Shown here one piece after another: positions 18,800 through 61,641 of a DNA stretch of 64,000 bases. Source of the DNA: an uncultured Bacillales bacterium. GTDB taxonomy: Bacteria > Bacillota_I > Bacilli_A > RFN20 > CAG-826. The notes under the pieces were generated by a model. It was not told where the DNA came from, did no database searches, and was given only the letters and a program-made list of their open reading frames with translations. The position numbers and the translations under genes are program-made. Every line of letters starts with the position of its first letter. Positions within the stretch are counted from its first letter, which is position 1. The stretch is taken from positions 133,765 to 197,764 of the forward strand of contig CAMKPL010000002.1 of NCBI GenBank assembly GCA_946414655.1, in the 5' to 3' direction.

Positions 18800-18967
18800 A
18801 ATATGGTTTACATTTGTAAAAAAATGTTTACAAACACTTTCATTAATAATATATTAATAAGCGTTGTCGCCTCACAAGCTACAACCGCATAGAAAAGGTA
18901 ACTAACTTATTACTCATAGTAATAGACCTTAATAGCGAGTCTTGAGTGAGAAAGTCGAGGTATATTT
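18800..18967 (+). promoter_or_regulatory. rplU 5' leader region containing two short palindromes; possible L21-leader autoregulatory RNA.
   Basis: Palindrome TTTGTAAA-N7-TTTACAAA overlaps a TTTACA(-35)-17-TATATT(-10) promoter. Second palindrome ATTACTCATAGTAAT. The 168-nt untranslated leader is typical of Firmicute rplU operons. Confidence 0.3.
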
Positions 18968-42119: not shown

Positions 42120-42308
42120 ATGGCAACTGAACAAATTAATTTCGAAAAATCACTCGAACGTCTGCAAGAGATTGTCGACAAGATTGAAAAGGAAACCCTT
42201 CCTTTGGAAGAATCTATCAAACTCTATGAAGAAGGAAAGAAGGTTATTTCGACCTTAGAGAAGGCCTTAAAGGAAGCTGAAGCAAAAATCGGAGAACTAC
42301 AAAAATAA
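42120..42308 (+). CDS. xseB: Exodeoxyribonuclease VII small subunit
   Basis: 62 aa. 'FEKSLERLQEIVDKIE...LEESIKLYEEG' is the canonical XseB coiled coil. Confidence 0.8.
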   Translation: MATEQINFEKSLERLQEIVDKIEKETLPLEESIKLYEEGKKVISTLEKALKEAEAKIGELQK

Positions 42309-42329
42309 CTTAAAAGTTAGAAATTTAAA

Positions 42330-42358
42330 ATAGTAGTTATTTAGTAGATTATTAGTAA
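42330..42358 (+). repeat. Site a of the 11-bp-periodic TTAGTAG heptamer direct-repeat motif (ATAGTAGttatTTAGTAGattaTTAGTAAatg), ending at the dxs ATG.
   Basis: Heptamers at 42330, 42341 and 42352 with 11-bp spacing. Related sites at about 49852 and about 58622. Confidence 0.55.
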
Positions 42359-44221
42359 ATGTCTAGAAAGAAAGTTAACAATGTTAAACACGTTAATTTA
42401 AACGAAATCAAAGATCCATCATTTTTGAAGAATCTTTCGTATGCTGAGCTCAACGTTCTTGCTGACGATATTCGTAAAGAAATTATCCGCTGTACTGCCA
42501 AGAATGGTGGACACCTTTCTAGTAATCTCGGAGTAGTGGAATTAACCATTGCTATCGAACATTTCTTTGATTTATCAAAGGACAAACTAATTTTCGATGT
42601 TGGTCACCAATGTTACACACACAAAATCTTAACTGGACGTCCTCTTGAAACATTAAGACAAACAAACGGTATTTCTGGTTTCCAGAAAATCGATGAATCA
42701 ACCTATGACTGTTTTGATGCTGGACATTCTTCAACATCAATTTCCGTAGCAAATGGCTTTGCCATTGCTCGTGATTTAAAAGGTGAAAACTATAATGTCA
42801 TCGCTCTAATTGGCGATGGATCTATTCCTTCTGGATTAGCTTTTGAAGGACTCAATAACATTGCTAGTGGAAAAAATAAAGTTGTTATCATTTTAAATGA
42901 TAATGGTATGTCTATTTCTAAACCTGTTGGTGCTTTATCAAAGTCATTTGGCCGAATTTCAACTGCAGCAGGTTATAACCGTATTAAATACGGATATCGC
43001 CGAGCAATGTTTAAAACCAAAGTCGGTAAGAAGATTTATAATCTTACTTTAAGAATTAAGAACTGGTTTAAACGCCATCTTACTTCCCCAAATATTTTTA
43101 CCGATCTTGGTTTTGCCTATATTGGTCCGGTTGATGGACACGACATTCGAAAGCTTGAAAAAGCATTTAAACGAATTGGAAACACTGAAAAATCAGTGGT
43201 CGTTCATGTATGTACTACCAAAGGTAAAGGCTACGAATTAGCTGAAAACGACAACACCGGATCATGGCATGGAGTTGCCCCATTCAAGATTCAAGATGGT
43301 GTACCTTTAAAATCATCAAATCACGTTAGTTGGTCGAAAGTCTTTGCTGACCTATCTCTTGAAGAGATGAAGAAACATCAAGATGCATTTTTAATCTCTC
43401 CAGCGACAACTGTGGGCGCAGAAATGGAAGAGGTTTTAAAACAATTCCCGGAGAGAAGTCTTGATGTCGGCATTGCCGAAGAACATGCCGCAACACTTTC
43501 TGGAGCACTTTCTCGCGGTGGTTATCACCCCATTATTTCGATTTATTCAACATTCATGCAGCGTGCTTACGATGAAATATCGCATGACATGTCACGTACT
43601 AAAGCGAATGCGACACTACTGATCGACCGTGCCGGACTAGTTGGACGTGATGGTGAAACTCATCAAGGCATCTATGATGCAGCGTTTTTATCAACAATTC
43701 CAGGTGTTGTTATTACAATGCCTTCGACACGTAAAGAAGCCGAATACCTATATAGCGAATCATTCAACAATCACGGTGTATTTGCGATGCGTTATCCACG
43801 TGCCACATGCATTGAGGAAGGAAAAGAAGAACAACTTTCCTTTGGAAAATGGATTAAAGTACGCGAATCTAAATCAAAGAAAGTTGCGGTGATCTCTGTT
43901 GGACATCTCACTCATGAGTTGAATCAACTGGTTGAGGAAAAGCGTCTAGATTGCACAATTTATAACGCTATTTTCATTAATCCAGTTGATGAGGATGCTT
44001 TGAAGAGCCTCCTCTCATATGATAAAATCGTCATTTACGATGCGTATAGCACCCAAGGAGGCCTTGTTTCGCTCGTGACGCTTAAATTATCGCAACTAAA
44101 ATTTAAAGGGCTTATTTCGGCTCGTTGTGTACCAAACGTTTTTGTCAAGCAAGCAACAATCACGGAACAACTCGAATCTTTTGGATTGCTTCCAAGACAA
44201 ATTTTAGAAGAACTTAAATAA
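42359..44221 (+). CDS. dxs: 1-deoxy-D-xylulose-5-phosphate synthase
   Basis: 'DPSFLKNLSYAELNVLADDIR' N-terminus. ThDP motif 'GDGSIPSGLAFEGLNN'. Transketolase-like domains. No Shine-Dalgarno; the start abuts the repeat motif. Confidence 0.85.
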   Translation: MSRKKVNNVKHVNLNEIKDPSFLKNLSYAELNVLADDIRKEIIRCTAKNGGHLSSNLGVVELTIAIEHFFDLSKDKLIFDVGHQCYTHKILTGRPLETLRQTNGISGFQKIDESTYDCFDAGHSSTSISVANGFAIARDLKGENYNVIALIGDGSIPSGLAFEGLNNIASGKNKVVIILNDNGMSISKPVGALSKSFGRISTAAGYNRIKYGYRRAMFKTKVGKKIYNLTLRIKNWFKRHLTSPNIFTDLGFAYIGPVDGHDIRKLEKAFKRIGNTEKSVVVHVCTTKGKGYELAENDNTGSWHGVAPFKIQDGVPLKSSNHVSWSKVFADLSLEEMKKHQDAFLISPATTVGAEMEEVLKQFPERSLDVGIAEEHAATLSGALSRGGYHPIISIYSTFMQRAYDEISHDMSRTKANATLLIDRAGLVGRDGETHQGIYDAAFLSTIPGVVITMPSTRKEAEYLYSESFNNHGVFAMRYPRATCIEEGKEEQLSFGKWIKVRESKSKKVAVISVGHLTHELNQLVEEKRLDCTIYNAIFINPVDEDALKSLLSYDKIVIYDAYSTQGGLVSLVTLKLSQLKFKGLISARCVPNVFVKQATITEQLESFGLLPRQILEELK

Positions 44222-47576: not shown

Positions 47577-48160
47577 TTTAGTAAAATTATTTGATGAGAA
47601 AGGCGTCTTATGAGATGCCTTTTTTCTAATTTTGAAATAAGACGAGACAAAGTCTCACGTTCTAAATGGACACTTTGTGCAAGAGTGGTGATGCTCTTAA
47701 ATGAAATTTGTCCTTTGTTAGATTGAAGGTAGAACAGAAAACGTTCCTCAGCACTTTCTAAAGACAAAAGTTTGATATGGTGGTTCAAACGTTTCACAAA
47801 ACTCGATTCAAGTTTCATATATTCCTCAAAAAACTGCGGATCTTTCATAAGATTTTTAAACTCTTCTTTCTTTATAAGAAAGATTTGACTATCATCAATT
47901 GTCGTAACGTTGCCTTTAAATTTGTTATCTTCTCCAAAAACAAGATGTACGCCAAAGAAGTCGTTAGGTTTAATTTCGTTATAAACAATCTCGGTCCCTT
48001 TAAAGGAGTACGACTGAATACGAATAAAGCCAGATTTAACTAATCCAACATAATGACATTCTTCTCCTTCATGAAAAAGAACCATTCCTTTAGGAAAAGA
48101 TTTTGTCGTGTATCCATGTTCTTCCAAAATTTGTATAAAAGTCATAATTTCGTGATTCAA
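47573..48160 (-). CDS. Crp/Fnr-family transcriptional regulator (TTG start in track; an alternative ATG lies 5 codons in).
   Basis: cNMP-binding beta-roll '[24 protein letters not shown]'. C-terminal HTH '[17 protein letters not shown]'. Confidence 0.7.
47597..47628. terminator. Bidirectional terminator between the convergent genes deoB and the crp/fnr-like gene
   Basis: AAGGCGTCT-tatg-AGATGCCTT flanked by T-runs on both strands. Confidence 0.55.
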
Positions 48161-48177
48161 ATCACATTTTAATTAAA

Positions 48178-48195
48178 TCATATAAAGTATGATGT
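48178..48195. promoter_or_regulatory. Palindrome ATCATA-N5-TATGAT in the short divergent intergenic region between the crp/fnr-like gene and the ABC operon; candidate operator.
   Basis: Inverted repeat seen directly. Located immediately upstream of the SBP start codon. Confidence 0.3.
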
Positions 48196-49108
48196 GTCTA
48201 TGAAAACAAAGAAATTATTTTTACTCCCAGCACTCCTTCTAGCTGGCTGCTCTATCGATAGTCAGGAAAAACTATCCATTCTTACTCCAACGGGCGCTCC
48301 AGCGGTCGTTTTTGCATCGTTTTTAAACGATTCTAACTTCAAAGTCATTGATCAACCAGCGAATATTATTGCCCAAATGGTCAATGAAAATGTCGATATC
48401 GCTGTTTTACCAACAAACGTCGGAGTTCAGCAAATTGCAAAAGGTCTCAAGTACAAAATTGCTTCAACAATCACATTTGGAAACCTATTTATTTGTTCGA
48501 CTGGACTAGATGAAGACGGCGTTATGGGTGATGACGATTATATCGTCTCATTCCAGGAAAATGCTGTTCCAGACAAAATATATAAGGCTGTTTATGATGT
48601 AGCAGTTGATTATTACGCAACAAATGCCCAAGAAGCTGCAAAGTGTTTAAAACTAAAACGCGATGTTGTGAATAGCAAAGATGTTGATTATGTCTTAATG
48701 GCTGAACCAGCTATTAGCAAACAAGAATCTATCGGAACTGACTTTAGCATTTATGCTAATCTTCAAGAACAATATCAGACGAAGTACGATAATCAACAAA
48801 TCTTTCAAGCCTCAATTTTTGTTCGTGATTCATTATCTCATGAGCAAGTTGATCCTTATTTAGGTCGTATTAAATCCTATGTTTCTTCCTTAAAAGCTAA
48901 TCCTTCTCTTTTAGAGAATGCAAAACAATTAGACCCAAACGCCGAAACAACTTTAGGAATTGATATTGCAGCAACTGTGGCGGCAATTAAAAAAGATAAT
49001 GCCATCGGTATCGGTTATGAAGTTGCCTATGAACACAAACACGAGATTGATACATTCTTAAAAATCTTTGGCATGACGGAGACTAATGAAGAAATTTATT
49101 ACAAATAA
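48194..49108 (+). CDS. ABC transporter substrate-binding lipoprotein, NMT1/THI5-like/NitT-TauT-type fold; specificity unknown.
   Basis: Lipobox 'LLLAGCS'. GTG start in track. 304 aa. Confidence 0.6.
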   Translation: MSMKTKKLFLLPALLLAGCSIDSQEKLSILTPTGAPAVVFASFLNDSNFKVIDQPANIIAQMVNENVDIAVLPTNVGVQQIAKGLKYKIASTITFGNLFICSTGLDEDGVMGDDDYIVSFQENAVPDKIYKAVYDVAVDYYATNAQEAAKCLKLKRDVVNSKDVDYVLMAEPAISKQESIGTDFSIYANLQEQYQTKYDNQQIFQASIFVRDSLSHEQVDPYLGRIKSYVSSLKANPSLLENAKQLDPNAETTLGIDIAATVAAIKKDNAIGIGYEVAYEHKHEIDTFLKIFGMTETNEEIYYK

Positions 49109-49862
49109 GTATTTCTTAATTTTTTCAGGAATAGTTTTACTATTTGGACTGTGGTTTTTAGCAACGCTTATCTTTGATAAGAACTCAATGATTTTTCCAT
49201 CTCCGATTGTTACTTTTGATGCATTAATTCAACTTTTAGGGGTTGGCTATACATATCAATGTTTAGCTTATTCTGTGCTGAAGATGTTGATCGGATTTGG
49301 ATTGGGATTTATTGTGGCGTTTATTCTCGCACTTATTGTGCGTGATAATGACCATTTGTACACATTATTCTCACCAATCATTACAGCCTTAAAAGCCATT
49401 CCAACAGCAGCGATTGTCTTTTTGTTCGTTGTTTTAGTGGATGCCGAATATGCTCCATGTTTTCTTGTAATGATTTTATCATTACCAATCTTATATGAAT
49501 CGCTTGTTAACGGTATGAGAAATATTGATCCTCAAATTCTTGATGCTGTGAAAATCGATGGTGGTAAAGGAATACAAAAGCTCTTTCGTGTTCAACTACC
49601 TTTAGCGCTCCCATATCTGCTTGTCGGTATCATTTCGTCGTTTTCTCTATCTTTTAAGATAGAAATCATGTCTGAAATTGTTACCGGATATACACGTAAC
49701 GGTTTAGGAAGTTTGATTAAATCTGTGCAAATCAATGACCCAACAAATATGGCAGCCATTTTTGCATATTCTTTAATCGCAATTATATTGATGATCATTG
49801 TTTCTATTCCGGCATCTTACTTAAGAAATAAAGTGGCAGTGAAAGCTGGAATTAGTAGATAA
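49086..49862 (+). CDS. ABC transporter permease (binding-protein-dependent, TauC/SsuC-like). No cognate ATPase gene is adjacent.
   Basis: 6 TM helices. EAA-like loop 'KIDGGKGIQKLFRVQLP'. Overlaps the SBP gene. Confidence 0.65.
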   Translation: MKKFITNKYFLIFSGIVLLFGLWFLATLIFDKNSMIFPSPIVTFDALIQLLGVGYTYQCLAYSVLKMLIGFGLGFIVAFILALIVRDNDHLYTLFSPIITALKAIPTAAIVFLFVVLVDAEYAPCFLVMILSLPILYESLVNGMRNIDPQILDAVKIDGGKGIQKLFRVQLPLALPYLLVGIISSFSLSFKIEIMSEIVTGYTRNGLGSLIKSVQINDPTNMAAIFAYSLIAIILMIIVSIPASYLRNKVAVKAGISR

Positions 49863-49882
49863 TTAGTAGTTGTTATCCACTC
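49852..49882 (+). repeat. Site b of the TTAGTAG 11-mer repeat motif (TTAGTAGATAA-TTAGTAGTTGT), overlapping the permease stop codon and abutting the DnaA-box-like TTATCCACT.
   Basis: The two 11-mers are identical to the two 11-mers found at site c. Confidence 0.55.
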
Positions 49883-49934
49883 ATTTATATGTGGAAAAGT
49901 CCTAGTTCAGGGCTTTTTCTTTAGTTAATTGATA

Positions 49935-49975
49935 TAAAGGAAATAAATAAAAAAGAACGATTAATTCGCTCTTTC
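49935..49975 (-). terminator. Probable rho-independent terminator (minus strand) after rsfS
   Basis: On the minus strand: AAGAGCG-aauuaau-CGUUCUU (one G-U pair) followed by UUUUUUAUUUAUUU. Confidence 0.4.
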
Positions 49976-50011
49976 TTGGTATTTGGTTAACATAATATCT
50001 ATTATGCGAAG

Positions 50012-51447: not shown

Positions 51448-52605
51448 TTATTTGGTTAAGACCTTTGGTCTTGACGAATAAATCGCCACTCCTTTTGGAA
51501 TGCAGATACGGAATGTTTGGTTCGCGGCTTTAAAGTTGATCCAACCTAAACCTTGAACACCAATATCACGATAGTTACTTTCAGTAATTGTAATTTCAAA
51601 GACGTCTAAATCATGCCCAGAGTGAATTCTAGGAAGTGATGGTACAAGACGTTTACGTAAAACAGATTGAATAAATTTCTCATCGACATGTTGTCCGGTA
51701 ATCTTTTTTAATTCAACATGGTCGTGGAAATAGCATTTAAACTCGGTTTTCTTGCCTTTTAGGAGTTGGATGTAGCCAATTCCACCAAAGCAGAGAACTT
51801 GGCCTTCCTCGAGGCTTACTTTTTTGGCCTCAACGGCCTTGGTTAGATAGATTTGTTTAAGTGTGGCCTTGTCGAGGTTATAAAGAATCGAGTTATTAAT
51901 GGAAAGTCCTGGAGCATCATATAATGATGTTGTTCTAGAAAGAGGAATCTCCATAACTGATAATTTTGTTTTTGGATATAGATGTGTAGAGATAGTTCCT
52001 TTACTCATATTTGAGTAAACACGAAGGAACGATTGAACAAGAGTGGTTTTACCACTCATCGAAGCTCCGACAACGTAGACATCTCTTCCGTTGCGGAGTT
52101 CGTATATTCTTGAAAGAATATGTTTAGCGTTTTCATCGGTTGTTGCGGTTGCTAAAACAACATCGTCCTTGGTTAATTTAATTCCTGATGCACGGAAACG
52201 ATGGGCGACATATTCTTTGGTGTCTTCTTCGGTGCATGTTGGTGGCAAAAGGTCAAATTTGTTACCGACAACTAAAATATCCATACCTTGGATAATCGCG
52301 TTGATTTGGAGAGAGAAACTTGCTTCAAAAGAGAAGAGGTTTACTACGTAAACAAGAAGAGCGTTTTTACGTTTTGCATCCATGACAAACTTCAGATAGT
52401 CTTCACTGACTTCTGGTTCGTTGGATTTGTTGCGATAACGTTCGAGTTCGAAACAATGGTCACAGAACAAAAAGTTTTGTGATGCGTTTTCGAGTGTTTC
52501 TTTCTTAACGTAACCTTCTTTTGTTGGGTCTTCGCTTTGTAAGACTGCGCCGCAACTATAGCAGCGACGAATTTGAGAAATTTTTGCCATTATCTTTCCC
52601 TCCAA
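51448..52605 (-). CDS. yqeH: Ribosome-biogenesis GTPase YqeH (circularly permuted, N-terminal Zn finger)
   Basis: N-terminal 'CYSCGAVLQ...CDHCF' zinc ribbon. Permuted G motifs 'NKFDLL' (G4) before 'GASMSGKTT' (G1). Confidence 0.8.
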   Translation of the reverse strand: MEGKIMAKISQIRRCYSCGAVLQSEDPTKEGYVKKETLENASQNFLFCDHCFELERYRNKSNEPEVSEDYLKFVMDAKRKNALLVYVVNLFSFEASFSLQINAIIQGMDILVVGNKFDLLPPTCTEEDTKEYVAHRFRASGIKLTKDDVVLATATTDENAKHILSRIYELRNGRDVYVVGASMSGKTTLVQSFLRVYSNMSKGTISTHLYPKTKLSVMEIPLSRTTSLYDAPGLSINNSILYNLDKATLKQIYLTKAVEAKKVSLEEGQVLCFGGIGYIQLLKGKKTEFKCYFHDHVELKKITGQHVDEKFIQSVLRKRLVPSLPRIHSGHDLDVFEITITESNYRDIGVQGLGWINFKAANQTFRICIPKGVAIYSSRPKVLTK

Positions 52606-53111
52606 TCAATTAATTTGCCTTTTCGTTTTAAATGACGACGAATTGGGCGATCAAACAAGCGGTTAAAGTGGGTTGTTGGTTGGTCTTCCTTAACAATTTT
52701 ATCTGTGAGAATACATAGTATTCTAGCACGATTCGCTGAAGCAATATCCGTGACCGTTTGATCACCAATCATCACCGCTGTTTTTAAATCAATTTGTGCT
52801 TCTTTTAGTTTACGAATCAGCTTTCGAGCAAATGGTTTGCCCACTGCTGAGGCATATCTAACTCCGAGAGCATTAGCGTATTCTTGGACACGTTTGCCAG
52901 TGTTATTAGAGATGATGAATAACTCAATCCCATTTTCTTCAAGAAGCTGCTTAAATGAAACAACATTTGCGCTCGGTGTTTTTGTTTTATACGAATCTAG
53001 AGTATTGTCTAGATCCGATAAAACGGTCTTAATCCCATGCTTTTTATAAAAATCAATTTCGATTTCGAATATTGATTTCGCATGAGCATAAGGAGTGTAA
53101 ACTTTGCACAT
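52590..53111 (-). CDS. yqeG: HAD-superfamily phosphatase YqeG
   Basis: 'VLSDLDNTL' DxD motif, 'IISNN', 'MIGDQTVTD'. Confidence 0.75.
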   Translation of the reverse strand: MCKVYTPYAHAKSIFEIEIDFYKKHGIKTVLSDLDNTLDSYKTKTPSANVVSFKQLLEENGIELFIISNNTGKRVQEYANALGVRYASAVGKPFARKLIRKLKEAQIDLKTAVMIGDQTVTDIASANRARILCILTDKIVKEDQPTTHFNRLFDRPIRRHLKRKGKLIDWRER

Positions 53112-57884: not shown

Positions 57885-58625
57885 ATGGATATTATTTTAT
57901 ATAATATAATCGTCGGTTTTTTATCATTAATTTTAGGTTATTTTTTTGGTTCTATTCCAACAGGAATCATTCTTGGAAAGGTCTTTTTTCATCGTGATCC
58001 ACGTCAAGAAGGGTCAAAAAACTCGGGTGGAACGAACGTCGGAAGACTATTTGGCAAGAAAATTGGCTTACTTTGCATCATCCTCGATATGATCAAAACT
58101 GTGATTCCTTTAATAATTGTTTGGTCAATTATTAAATTCTCTTCCTTAAATCAAGTTTTAGTCGACAACTTTGGTTCAGGCTTATGGAACAACGGAGTCC
58201 TTTATATTTATCTTGCTCCTTTAGGAGCAATGGTTGGACATTGTTATCCTGTGTTTGCGAAGTTTAATGGAGGTAAAGCTGTGGCAACTGTCGCAGGATT
58301 TGTTCTTGCGACATCTTGGTTACTCTCTGTTCTCGGCTTAGCAGTCTTCTTTATAGTTCTAAAAATTAAAAAGTATGTCTCACTTGGTTCAATTGTAACA
58401 ATCATTGCCGTGACACTCGTTGCTTGGATTATGGTCATCGTTAAATACTTTGGTCCAGTCTCATTTGCAAACTTCGGAATGTATGGTTGGGGCGATTATG
58501 TTGTTGCCGGATTTGAGTATGCCGGGGTGATGACATTCGGAGCGGCGTTATTAATCTATAGACACCGCGCAAACATCAAACGATTGGCCAACCATGAAGA
58601 ATCAAAAATTAAGTGGTTAAGTTAG
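57885..58625 (+). CDS. plsY: Glycerol-3-phosphate acyltransferase PlsY
   Basis: 'GSKNSGGTNVGR' motif. Polytopic membrane protein, 246 aa with an internal insertion. Confidence 0.8.
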   Translation: MDIILYNIIVGFLSLILGYFFGSIPTGIILGKVFFHRDPRQEGSKNSGGTNVGRLFGKKIGLLCIILDMIKTVIPLIIVWSIIKFSSLNQVLVDNFGSGLWNNGVLYIYLAPLGAMVGHCYPVFAKFNGGKAVATVAGFVLATSWLLSVLGLAVFFIVLKIKKYVSLGSIVTIIAVTLVAWIMVIVKYFGPVSFANFGMYGWGDYVVAGFEYAGVMTFGAALLIYRHRANIKRLANHEESKIKWLS

Positions 58626-58654
58626 TAGTTGTTTAGTAGCAAATTAGTAGATAA
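58622..58654 (+). repeat. Site c of the TTAGTAG repeat motif: three perfect heptamers at 11-bp spacing (TTAGTAGttgtTTAGTAGcaaaTTAGTAGataatta), overlapping the plsY stop codon.
   Basis: Heptamers at 58622, 58633 and 58644. A perfect DnaA-box 9-mer (TGTGGATAA = rc TTATCCACA) lies 35 bp downstream at about 58685-58693. Confidence 0.6.
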
Positions 58655-58670
58655 TTACACTGTTGATAAA

Positions 58671-58738
58671 ACACTCATCGTTATTGTGGATAAACAAATT
58701 ATTCCGATTTGATGGGTGTTTTTCATTGACACTTTTTA
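58671..58738 (+). terminator. Possible long-loop terminator for plsY
   Basis: AAACACUCAUC...GAUGGGUGUUU (11 bp, one G-U pair) followed by UUUUU. Confidence 0.3.
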
Positions 58739-60582: not shown

Positions 60583-61641
60583 ATGGCTCAATTAGCTCGA
60601 GAAAAAACAAAACAAATTCATGTTGGAAAGATTGCTCTTGGTGGACAGAACAAAGTTTTAATCCAATCCATGTGTAATATTAAAACATCCAACTTCATTG
60701 AAGTTGCTGAACAAATTAACGCTTGTGCTGCTCTAGGAGCAGACTTAATGCGTGTTAGTGTTTTAGACATGGATGATGCTCACGCGATTAAAGAGATTAA
60801 ATCACGAATTAGTGTCCCATTAATTGCTGATATCCATTTTGACTATAAATTAGCCTTAGCTTCTATTGAAGCTGGTGTTGATGCAATCAGATTAAATCCT
60901 GGAAATATTGGGTCAAAAGAGAATGTCCAAAAAGTAGTCGAAGCATGTAAACAAAAACACATTCCAATTCGCGTTGGTGTTAACTCTGGATCAATCGATA
61001 AGGAAGTGAACAACAACACCGCCATTGTTACCGCCAAAGAACTTGTTGAATCTGTTTCAAGAATGGTAAAAATTCTTGAGGATTTGGACTTCTATGACAT
61101 TGTCATTTCTTTGAAATGTTCTCATGTTCTTGAAACAATCGAGTCTTATAGACTCGCAAGTAAGAAATTTAAATATCCACTTCATATTGGAATCACTGAG
61201 GCTGGACCAAAGGATATCGGACTTGTTCGCTCCGTTGCTGGCTTAGCCCCATTATTAAGTGAAGGTATCGGAGATACAATTCGTATCTCGCTTAGTGATG
61301 AACCAGAAGAAGAAGTGCGTGCCTGTCGACGTCTTTTAAAAGATTTAGGAATCCGAAGCGATTATCCAAATCTGATTTCGTGCCCGACATGTGGTCGAAC
61401 ACAAGTTAATCTTGTTCCGCTTGCCAACAAGATTTCGAAGTTTCTAGAAGAAAACAAGATTAATAAAACCGTCGCTGTGATGGGCTGCATTGTCAATGGT
61501 CCAGGCGAAGCAAAACGCGCTGACATCGGTTGTGCAGGTGGAAAAAACGAATGGGTTATTTTTAAAAAAGATAAAATAATTAAAAAAGTTCCCGATAAAG
61601 ACATTTATAAGGAACTTACTAAACTAATCTTAGAATTATAA
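60583..61641 (+). CDS. ispG: 4-hydroxy-3-methylbut-2-enyl diphosphate synthase (GcpE)
   Basis: TIM-barrel N-terminal domain and C-terminal [4Fe-4S] motif 'CPTCGRT...GCIVNGPGE'. Confidence 0.85.

What the first reader, a model, noticed from the sequence alone, without database searches (positions are those of the whole stretch)
42330..42358. TTAGTAG repeat site a occupies the translation-initiation region of dxs
A degenerate copy (ATAGTAG...TTAGTAG...TTAGTAA at 11-bp spacing) ends 0 nt before the dxs ATG. It replaces any recognisable Shine-Dalgarno sequence. A protein or RNA-binding factor recognising the repeat would be positioned to control entry into the MEP isoprenoid pathway. Alternatively, dxs is translated by coupling or leaderless-like initiation.
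Basis: partly seen in the sequence, partly recalled or inferred. Interest (0 to 1): 0.55.

Follow-up and report, generated by a model that had tools for sequence, protein, structure and literature searches.

The report
Conserved phased TAGTA repeats at gene junctions
The three repeats in front of dxs are real and strongly conserved, but they belong to a family of phased TTAGTAG arrays that mark many gene junctions in this group of uncultured rumen bacteria, so they are probably a docking site for an unknown general nucleic-acid-binding factor and not a switch specific to isoprenoid synthesis.

Summary
ATAGTAG, TTAGTAG and TTAGTAA sit 11 bp apart at 42330-42358 and end at the dxs ATG (42359), and no Shine-Dalgarno sequence is present.

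Two more arrays lie on the same strand, at the stop codons of an ABC permease (49852-49869) and of plsY (58622-58650). That is 5 phased pairs against 0.03 expected.

All three sites are conserved at matching positions in related uncultured Bacilli genomes, down to 40-50% protein identity. The linkers and flanks drift while the pentamer TAGTA and the 11-bp phase stay fixed.

In three relatives the array lies between xseB and dinB with no dxs there, so it belongs to the junction after xseB and not to dxs. At least 14 other junctions carry arrays, next to unrelated housekeeping genes, mostly sense but also antisense under selection.

Arrays with the same heptamer and period are abundant in rumen Bacteroidales. 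Hits in phage contigs are at background level, as permuted controls show.

No Rfam family, known operator or paper matches. My best guess (0.4) is a cooperative protein-binding array on duplex DNA. An RNA-level site (0.28) is not excluded.

The MEP-specific reading is only partly supported.

The parts
42330..42358 (+). Site a: three heptamers (ATAGTAG 42330-36, TTAGTAG 42341-47, TTAGTAA 42352-58) at an 11-bp period, ending at the dxs ATG.
   Evidence: Conserved in L001, L004, L006, L112, L088, L087, L121, L106, L019 and L361-L363.
42317..42323 (+). Degenerate fourth heptamer TTAGAAA, 13 nt upstream of unit 1 and therefore out of phase.
   Evidence: Read. The matching TTAGTAA/TTAGTAT is present in relatives.
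42120..42308 (+). xseB, the gene whose 3' junction carries the array in every relative.
   Evidence: TIGR01280. xseB-[array]-dinB in L130, L141 and L146.
42359..44221 (+). dxs. The ATG at 42359-61 has no Shine-Dalgarno sequence.
   Evidence: N-terminus conserved.
42324..42352 (+). Possible weak sigma-A promoter overlapping the array: TTTAAA (42324-29), 17 nt, GATTAT (42347-52), then 6 nt to the A of ATG. It would give a leaderless dxs mRNA.
   Evidence: Read. Same geometry as yqeG, dinB and ispG. It is not among the promoter-like sites listed by the scan, and it is poorly conserved.
49852..49869 (+). Site b: TTAGTAG-ATAA-TTAGTAG. It overlaps the stop codon (TAA 49860-62) of an ABC permease, in the convergent spacer facing rsfS.
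   Evidence: Invariant in L001, L004 and L006 while the flanks drift. Orthologous sites in L116, L118, L136, L146, L361 and L362.
49893..49919 (+). Intrinsic terminator 23 nt downstream of site b.
58622..58650 (+). Site c: three perfect TTAGTAG units with linkers TTGT and CAAA. The first TAG (58623-25) is the plsY stop codon.
   Evidence: The same junction carries an array in L137 and L179, where PlsY is 40-43% identical.
58664..58725 (+). Strong terminator hairpin downstream of site c.
   Evidence: z = -4.8.

Best explanation
Site a is one member of a lineage-wide family of TAGTA arrays. Each array has two to five copies, usually three, of T-TAGTA-G spaced exactly 11 bp apart with A/T-rich linkers.

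I think the arrays are docking platforms for an unidentified sequence-specific protein. Several copies would bind cooperatively on one face of duplex DNA, one per helical turn. The invariant pentamer is nearly its own reverse complement (TA-G/C-TA), so such a protein could use the array in either orientation.

The factor would be a general one, architectural or a roadblock/insulator at gene boundaries, and not a pathway regulator. At this junction its footprint would cover the 29 bp before the dxs ATG. When bound it could hinder RNA polymerase reading through from xseAB, or an overlapping weak promoter. dxs itself would be translated without a Shine-Dalgarno sequence.

**Shown:** the phasing, the conservation, the distribution, use in both orientations, and the absence of a Shine-Dalgarno sequence.

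**Inferred:** that a protein binds, that it binds DNA and not RNA, and what binding does.
For: 1. **Period.** The strict 11-bp period equals one helical turn. There are 5 phased pairs against 0.03 expected. Of 32 distinct arrays, 27 have three units, though the two collection scans required three.
2. **Selection on the units, not the linkers.** In 96 units, TAGTA is invariant, although the detection rule of at most one mismatch per heptamer contributes to this. The tolerated mismatches fall almost only on T1 of the first unit and G7 of the last. G7 is 92% in non-last units and 41% in last units. This fits contacts that bridge neighbouring units. Linkers are about 97% A/T but vary in sequence.
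3. **Independence from coding.** Site b is identical in four genomes, yet the permease ends in a different frame in L006.
4. **Antisense arrays are also under selection.** The aspS-tkt arrays of L074 and L121 (Tkt 81% identical) keep all three heptamers while both linkers differ. The ftsL-like/ftsA spacer carries a sense array in L044 and an antisense one in L045. L121 has opposite arrays 4 kb apart within one co-directional gene run.
5. **The Bacteroidales arrays.** In rumen Bacteroidales the same heptamer and period occur in 3-8 copies. They are always intergenic and mostly on the promoter side: 26 divergent, 43 co-directional and 6 convergent spacers. In co-directional spacers there is no orientation bias, 24 to 19.
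6. **Precedent.** The best pentamers of the B. subtilis nucleoid protein Rok are TACTA (the reverse complement of TAGTA) and AACTA, read through the minor groove (PMC6212790). From established knowledge, the Pho-box layout of 7 conserved bp plus 4 A/T bp per 11-bp unit is the same geometry.
Against: - No binding protein has been identified.
- In the Bacilli clade most junction classes carry the array in sense orientation, about 12 to 3. The array sits close to the stop codon of the same-strand gene even in long spacers (site c: overlaps the stop, then 436 nt to the next gene). It usually lies between the stop codon and the terminator hairpin: sites b and c, L009, L118a, L137. This polarity is what an RNA or translation-linked element would show.
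- Sites in convergent spacers have no promoter to regulate.
- Three units is an odd number for a dimeric regulator.
- TAGTA outside the arrays is not avoided in the window: observed/expected 0.84. Rok-carrying Bacillus genomes do avoid it.
Confidence: 0.4

Rival explanations
1. RNA-level element. The transcribed repeats (UUAGUAG at an 11-nt period) would bind an oligomeric RNA-binding protein, a nuclease or a complementary RNA. At 3' ends this would affect mRNA processing or stability. At the xseB junction it would occupy the initiation region of the next gene and set its translation. One variant is cleavage just before the AUG, giving a leaderless mRNA.
For: - Sense orientation predominates, in about 12 of 15 junction classes.
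- The arrays abut or overlap the stop codon of the same-strand gene and precede the terminator hairpin.
- Genes that directly follow a sense array (dxs, dinB, a purK-like gene) have no Shine-Dalgarno sequence. Genes that follow an antisense array (tkt, nrdB) keep one.
- Leaderless-looking genes are common in the window, so these ribosomes probably cope with such mRNAs.
- The array region of site a is not significantly structured: z = -1.1.
Against: - Antisense arrays are conserved heptamer by heptamer. They would present a different RNA (CUACUAA).
- The Bacteroidales arrays show no orientation bias and lie mostly upstream of promoters.
- There is no Rfam match.
- The spacing differs from the known UAG-repeat binders. 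From memory, TRAP uses triplets every 5-6 nt and HutP every 7 nt.
Confidence: 0.28
2. The array overlaps a promoter, so that dxs is made as a leaderless mRNA. The repeat conservation would then reflect promoter or operator sequence.
For: - TTTAAA (42324-29), 17 nt, GATTAT (42347-52), then 6 nt to ATG.
- L001 and L112 have the better TTGAAT-17-GATTAT.
- yqeG, dinB and ispG have TATAAT or TAGAAT exactly 6 nt before their ATG.
Against: - The hexamer at -12..-7 keeps A at -11 in only about 5 of 12 relatives. Examples that lose it are GTTTAT, GTTATT and TTTTTT.
- The promoter scan did not list it.
- It cannot explain arrays at 3' ends, in convergent spacers, or in antisense orientation.
Confidence: 0.08
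3. Passive translational punctuation. Because 11 is not a multiple of 3, three units place stop codons in all three frames: TAG TAG on one strand and TAA on the other. This would release stray ribosomes at gene boundaries and let ribosomes leaving xseB reinitiate at the next AUG.
For: - The geometry follows directly from the sequence.
- The arrays start at or just after stop codons.
- The two-unit arrays of the window, L034 and L118 have the linker ATAA, which supplies the third frame.
- The xseB-dxs spacer contains no start codon.
Against: - The window's genes end in TAA 44 times, TAG 7 times and TGA 5 times. Yet the first stop of a unit is TAG in 96 of 96 units and never TAA.
- TA at positions 5-6 is kept even when the second stop is lost, as in TAGTAT and TAGTAC. 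So the sequence is selected, not merely its stop codons.
- L362 has a two-unit array with linker TTTT that leaves one frame open.
- Many Bacteroidales arrays lie upstream of promoters.
Confidence: 0.07
4. DnaA-related element. TAG repeats are the single-strand motif preferred by DnaA (DnaA-trios), and DnaA-box-like 9-mers follow sites b and c.
For: - PMC10316083 reports that the B. subtilis, H. pylori and T. maritima unwinding elements use TAG repeats next to DnaA boxes.
- The window has TTATCCACT and TGTGGAAAA after site b, and TGTTGATAA and TGTGGATAA after site c.
- TGTGGAAAA is kept in most site b orthologues.
Against: - Only site b orthologues and the window's site c have such boxes. About 25 other arrays have none within 60 nt.
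- DnaA-trios are contiguous triplets. In T. maritima two TAGs were not enough, and here pairs of TAG are separated by 5 nt.
- Site a has no box.
Confidence: 0.05

Closest known systems
Pho-box-type operator arrays of OmpR/PhoB-family response regulators. The layout is recalled from established knowledge of PhoB, B. subtilis PhoP, ArcA, CiaR and PmrA.
   Same: Direct repeats with an 11-bp period. Each unit has about 6-7 conserved bp followed by 4-5 A/T-rich bp. Copy number varies from 2 to 6. Binding is head to tail on one face of the helix.
   Different: The core (TTAGTA) matches no box that I know. The sites lie at stop codons and in convergent spacers and not only at promoters. The neighbouring genes share no function. 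Three units is the usual number.
High-affinity sites of the Bacillus nucleoid protein Rok (PMC6212790).
   Same: The invariant pentamer TAGTA is the reverse complement of TACTA, one of Rok's two best pentamers. Flexible TpA steps are favoured. Minor-groove reading would be nearly blind to orientation. Rok is a general factor with no regulon logic.
   Different: No Rok homologue was looked for or found here. Rok sites are not known as exact 11-bp phased triplets. TAGTA is not depleted elsewhere in the window. The paper's homologue survey covered Bacillus species only.
UAG-repeat sites of RNA-binding attenuation proteins (TRAP, HutP). Recalled from memory.
   Same: Repeated UAG triplets that can overlap a start region and block translation, or sit before a terminator.
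   Different: The spacing is 3 and 8 nt alternately, not 5-6 or 7. There are dozens of sites per genome next to unrelated genes. Antisense copies are conserved.
DnaA-trios of replication origins (PMC10316083).
   Same: TAG TAG on one strand. At sites b and c this lies 5' of DnaA-box-like 9-mers.
   Different: The triplets are interrupted and not contiguous. Most arrays have no DnaA box. The location is not an origin.
Iterons and arm-type sites of mobile elements. The 11-bp Tn916 DR2 repeat AGTAGTAAATT is recalled from memory. I could not verify it.
   Same: Tandem direct repeats of 11 bp containing TAGTAG, bound by a small DNA-binding domain. Generic 11-bp tandem repeats are common in phage contigs.
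   Different: The arrays here sit between housekeeping genes at the same positions in genomes as far apart as 40-50% protein identity. They are therefore not ends of mobile elements.

Membership tests
Shine-Dalgarno ribosome-binding site | A purine-rich stretch complementary to the 16S 3' tail, 4-15 nt before the start codon. | tested here: not met
   Duplex energy is -2.4 kcal/mol, against a window median of -5.1 and -9.7 for xseB. None of 13 orthologous dxs leaders has GGAG or GAGG.
Leaderless mRNA promoter | A -10 hexamer with A at -11 and T at -7 ending about 6 nt before the A of ATG, with a -35 hexamer 16-18 nt upstream, conserved among relatives. | tested here: inconclusive
   The window has TTTAAA-17-GATTAT-6-ATG. 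The geometry matches yqeG, dinB and ispG. A at -11 is kept in about 5 of 12 relatives. The site is not reported by the promoter scan. No transcript data are available.
OmpR/PhoB-type direct-repeat operator | Direct repeats at a 10-11 bp period with A/T-rich linkers. | tested here: met
   exact 11-bp period, linkers about 97% A/T.
OmpR/PhoB-type direct-repeat operator | Sites lie at promoters of a functionally coherent regulon and match a known box. | tested here: not met
   Sites lie at stop codons and in convergent spacers. The neighbours are unrelated housekeeping genes. No known box is matched, judged from memory.
Rok-type nucleoid protein site | A pentamer A/T-A-C-T-A with a central G:C pair flanked by TpA steps. 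| tested here: met
   TAGTA (= TACTA) is invariant in 96 units. Rok's preference is taken from PMC6212790.
Rok-type nucleoid protein site | A Rok homologue is present in the genome, and the pentamer is depleted elsewhere in it. | tested here: not met
   Depletion is weak: observed/expected 0.84, rank 52 of 512 pentamers. Presence of a homologue was not tested. Only 64 kb of the genome is available.
TRAP/HutP-type (G/U)AG RNA site | Triplets separated by constant 2-3 nt (TRAP) or 4 nt (HutP) spacers, on the sense strand only. | tested here: not met
   Triplet starts fall at 2, 5, 13, 16, 24 and 27, giving gaps of 0 and 5 nt. Antisense arrays are conserved. The spacer rules are recalled from memory.
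DnaA-trio unwinding module | Three or more contiguous TAG/TAA triplets next to a DnaA box. | tested here: not met
   The triplets come in pairs separated by 5 nt. Boxes are found only at site b orthologues and the window's site c.
Rfam RNA families | A match at or near a family's gathering score. | tested here: not met
   There is no hit at any array in the window or in 8 related loci.
REP/BIME-like or MITE-like selfish intergenic repeats | Palindromic units or terminal inverted repeats, with positions that differ between related genomes. | tested here: not met
   The units are direct repeats with no palindrome. Their positions are orthologous across genomes with 40-50% protein identity.

The most novel reading that the evidence does not exclude
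Uncultured rumen Bacilli, and independently or by transfer many rumen Bacteroidales, possess an undescribed global factor. It reads triplets of TAGTA phased one helical turn apart and uses them as punctuation at gene boundaries. It could act as a protein-mediated insulator, terminator or loop anchor. At the xseB junction it would replace the ribosome-binding site, so that the next gene (dxs or dinB) is expressed by a route that needs no Shine-Dalgarno sequence and that the factor gates.
Probability: 0.25. Interest if true: 0.8.

Novelty: new variant of a known kind. Interest (0 to 1): 0.55.

Why it matters
If the arrays are read by one factor, they define a new global cis-element in two abundant and largely uncultured groups of gut and rumen bacteria. 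That gives a direct handle for finding the factor, by phylogenetic profiling of genomes with and without arrays or by DAP-seq with proteins from the MAGs.

Expression of the first MEP enzyme in this clade does not use a Shine-Dalgarno sequence, and it is tied to a junction element that is shared with DNA-repair and housekeeping genes.

The work also shows that generic 11-bp tandem repeats are common background in phage and environmental DNA. Motif scans of this kind therefore need permuted controls.

Tried and rejected
- **Rfam.** Gathering thresholds on the window and on 8 related loci, and permissive E-values on 42-59.2 kb, gave nothing at the arrays.
- **Full-text search for the repeat sequences.** Only unrelated primers turned up. 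A keyword search for 11-bp repeats in Bacteroidales or rumen found nothing.
- **A replication-polar element (Ter or KOPS type).** Rejected, because L034 has arrays on -, - and + within 5 kb and L121 has opposite arrays inside one co-directional gene run.
- **A regulon.** Rejected, because the neighbouring genes are functionally unrelated in Bacilli and in Bacteroidales, where no shared neighbour family appeared.
- **A phage or mobile-element origin.** The 36 viral hits are matched by 64, 34 and 30 hits for three permuted heptamers, so those hits are background. The genes around a 17-unit array in contig L171 gave no PHROG annotation.
- **A fixed distance from the Bacteroidetes -7 promoter motif.** The distribution is broad.
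- **DnaA boxes as general partners.** Found only at site b orthologues and at the window's site c.
- **Depletion of TAGTA outside the arrays.** Weak.
- **An exact-sequence look-up of the window's Dxs.** Not on record.
- **The Tn916 DR2 sequence.** Could not be verified in the library.

Full report
**1. The observation**

The window reads ...aaaATAGTAGttatTTAGTAGattaTTAGTAAATGtct.... The three heptamers start at 42330, 42341 and 42352, and the ATG follows at 42359.

The ORF 42359..44221 is Dxs: TIGR00204 E=3e-180, 600 bits against a cut-off of 466. In-frame TAG TAA precede the ATG. The Lys-rich N-terminal extension (MSRKKVNNVKH...) recurs in all relatives, so no other start codon is plausible.

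No Shine-Dalgarno sequence is present. The best pairing of -22..-4 with the 16S tail is -2.4 kcal/mol, against a median of -5.1 for 56 ORFs and -9.7 for xseB.

The single heptamer is not enriched (7 against 5.4). The phased pair WTAGTAR-N4-WTAGTAR occurs 5 times against 0.03 expected.

The five pairs fall in three clusters, all on the + strand.
- Site a is the reported site.
- Site b (49852-69) overlaps the TAA stop of an ABC permease in a convergent spacer facing rsfS.
- Site c (58622-50) consists of three perfect units, and its first TAG is the plsY stop codon.

Sites b and c are each followed by an intrinsic terminator. Site a has no significant RNA structure: z = -1.1.

**2. Source and relatives**

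The closest Dxs proteins (80-91% identical) come from sheep and cattle rumen metagenomes and from MAGs labelled "Bacilli bacterium". Gene order around dxs is conserved.

The heptamers of site a, and the whole of site b, are invariant or nearly so while the rest of the spacer diverges. In L006 the permease ends in a different reading frame, yet the site b DNA is unchanged. Coding constraint therefore does not explain the conservation.

**3. How widely the motif occurs**

- About 85 loci are in rumen or gut Bacteroidales (Paludibacteraceae, Prevotella and others). Their units are TTAGTAGGTGA or TTAGTAGAGGN, in 3-8 copies.
- About 17 loci are in uncultured Bacilli or Mollicutes MAGs, with A/T linkers.
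- The rest are perfect 11-mer tandem repeats in scattered phyla.

A metagenome scan restricted to A/T linkers gave 70 loci. A phage scan gave 36. Three permuted heptamers at the same spacing gave 64, 34 and 30 phage hits. Hits outside the two lineages are therefore the ordinary background of 11-bp tandem repeats.

**4. Site a belongs to the junction after xseB, not to dxs**

The array precedes dxs in 13 genomes, with Dxs identity from 89% down to 47%. It ends 0-1 nt from the ATG in most of them, and none has a Shine-Dalgarno sequence.

In L130, L141 and L146 the order is xseA-xseB-[array]-dinB, with no dxs in between. There the array starts 3 nt after, or on, the xseB stop and ends 4-13 nt before the dinB ATG. 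In the window, dinB follows dxs.

The conserved partner is thus the 3' end of xseB. The downstream gene changes.

**5. Other junctions**

In the Bacilli loci every array is intergenic.

| Junction | Orientation | Loci |
|---|---|---|
| parC to yqeG | sense | L009, L118, L145 |
| aspS to tkt | antisense, abutting the tkt Shine-Dalgarno sequence | L074, L121 |
| nrdA to nrdB | antisense | L034 |
| pfp / nrdA (divergent) | sense to pfp | L034 |
| udk / degV (divergent) | sense to degV | L034 |
| ftsL-like gene to ftsA | sense in L044, antisense in L045 | L044, L045 |
| cobB 3' end | sense | L026 |
| ABC-F gene to marR | sense | L056 |
| mscL 3' end | sense | L059 |
| purK-like gene start | sense | L135 |
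| esterase gene | sense | L143 |

There is no functional theme.

Sites b and c are conserved deeply as well. The rsfS junction carries an array in L116, L118, L136, L146, L361 and L362. The plsY end carries one in L137 and L179, where PlsY is 40-43% identical.

**6. Anatomy of the unit**

In 32 distinct arrays (96 units), positions 2-6 (TAGTA) are invariant. T1 is 94% and G7 is 75%. Linkers are about 97% A/T with no fixed sequence. The detection rule allowed one mismatch per heptamer, so invariance is partly imposed. Where the mismatches fall is still informative: almost all are T1 of the first unit or G7 of the last. G7 is 59 of 64 in non-last units and 13 of 32 in last units, where T occurs 14 times. 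The outer flanks therefore matter only when another unit follows. This suggests contacts between neighbouring readers.

TAGTA is nearly its own reverse complement (TACTA).

**7. Stop codons are not the whole story**

Because 11 = 3x3+2, three units place stops in all three frames, as TAG TAG on one strand and TAA on the other. The arrays also tend to start at stop codons.

However, the window's genes end in TAA 44 times, TAG 7 times and TGA 5 times. The first stop of a unit is TAG in 96 of 96 units. Positions 5-6 are kept even when the second stop is lost. A specific sequence is selected, not merely its stops.

**8. DNA or RNA?**

For DNA:
- the period of one helical turn;
- conserved antisense arrays, as in L074 and L121, which keep all heptamers while both linkers differ and whose Tkt proteins are 81% identical;
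- opposite orientations in one spacer in two lineages;
- the quasi-palindromic core;
- the Bacteroidales arrays, which avoid convergent spacers (6 of 75 classified) and show no orientation bias in co-directional spacers, 24 to 19.

For RNA or translation:
- about 12 of 15 junction classes in the Bacilli are sense;
- the arrays sit close to the same-strand stop codon even in spacers of 150-460 nt and lie before the terminator hairpin;
- genes directly behind sense arrays lack a Shine-Dalgarno sequence, while those behind antisense arrays keep one.

I cannot settle this with sequence alone. I put DNA-level binding at 0.4 and RNA-level binding at 0.28.

**9. Leaderless option**

yqeG, dinB and ispG have TATAAT or TAGAAT exactly 6 nt before their ATG, so leaderless mRNAs seem common here. 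dxs has TTTAAA-17-GATTAT-6-ATG, and L001 and L112 have TTGAAT-17-GATTAT. The hexamer is formed by G7, the linker and the next T1. It keeps A at -11 only when the linker happens to start with A, which is about 5 of 12 relatives. I treat this as a minor possibility for this genome.

**10. Known systems**

Nothing in Rfam matches.

The layout equals Pho-box-type operators, but the locations and neighbours do not fit a regulon.

The pentamer equals the best site of the B. subtilis nucleoid protein Rok. No homologue was tested, and TAGTA is not depleted elsewhere in the window.

TAG repeats are the single-strand motif of DnaA. DnaA-box-like 9-mers follow sites b and c, but not the other arrays, and DnaA-trios are contiguous.

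TRAP and HutP spacings do not fit.

**11. Verdict**

The proposed meaning, a switch for the MEP pathway, is too narrow. The site is a general junction element of this clade that happens to occupy the dxs initiation region.

Noticed in passing
window 60583-61641 (ispG/GcpE), 44287 (dinB), 52590-53111 minus strand (yqeG): These three genes have TATAAT or TAGAAT ending exactly 6 nt before the ATG and no Shine-Dalgarno sequence, so they look like leaderless mRNAs. ispG is a second MEP-pathway gene in the window.
   Followed up: partly
window 49873-49881 and 49890-49898; 58661-58669 and 58685-58693: DnaA-box-like 9-mers follow sites b and c within 45 nt: TTATCCACT and TGTGGAAAA after site b, TGTTGATAA and a perfect TGTGGATAA after site c. 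Only about 0.04 would be expected there by chance. TGTGGAAAA is conserved in most site b orthologues. It may instead be part of a small hairpin or of the A-tract of the terminator.
   Followed up: partly
loci L007-L126 (rumen and gut Bacteroidales): Arrays of 3-8 units of TTAGTAGGTGA or TTAGTAGAGGN occur at many intergenic sites per genome, for example at least 12 contigs of MAG RGIG9891. One subfamily has conserved flanks (TAGTATGCGATTAGTATG... before the array and ...GGTTATAATCGGTATCATC after it). Copy number varies between close relatives. The linkers GGTGA and GAGG resemble Shine-Dalgarno sequences.
   Followed up: partly
L171 2770-2960 (metagenome contig, 50% G+C): An array of about 17 TTAGTA units at an 11-bp period lies inside an otherwise G+C-rich contig full of small unannotated ORFs. 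It looks like an iteron-type origin or operator of a phage or plasmid. There were no informative PHROG hits; one 96-aa ORF gave a marginal match (E=0.0006) to a terminase large-subunit family.
   Followed up: partly
L361 9985-10003 and L363 9985-10003: In the relatives with about 61-63% Dxs identity, the third unit is replaced by a three-codon mini-ORF (ATGGCAAAATGA or GTGGTAAAATGA). Its TGA overlaps the dxs ATG, an arrangement typical of termination-reinitiation coupling.
   Followed up: no
window about 48000-50000: AT skew changes sign and gene orientation flips from + to - at site b, while GC skew only falls to about zero. This could be a local effect of gene orientation and need not be the replication terminus.
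   Followed up: no
window 18873-18952: A ribosomal protein L21 leader (RF00559, 43.8 bits) is the only Rfam match in the window at the gathering threshold.
   Followed up: no
L019 (contig labelled Sodaliphilus sp., a Bacteroidales genus): This contig carries xseA, an A/T-linker array and a Bacilli-type dxs (47% identical to the window's Dxs). It is probably a mis-binned Bacilli contig.
   Followed up: no
L121 1285-1313 and 5483-5511: The antisense array before tkt and the sense array before dxs lie on the same presumed transcript. They are complementary heptamer by heptamer, so they could pair over a long range. Both enzymes depend on thiamine diphosphate and use glyceraldehyde-3-phosphate. 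The window has no tkt array.
   Followed up: no
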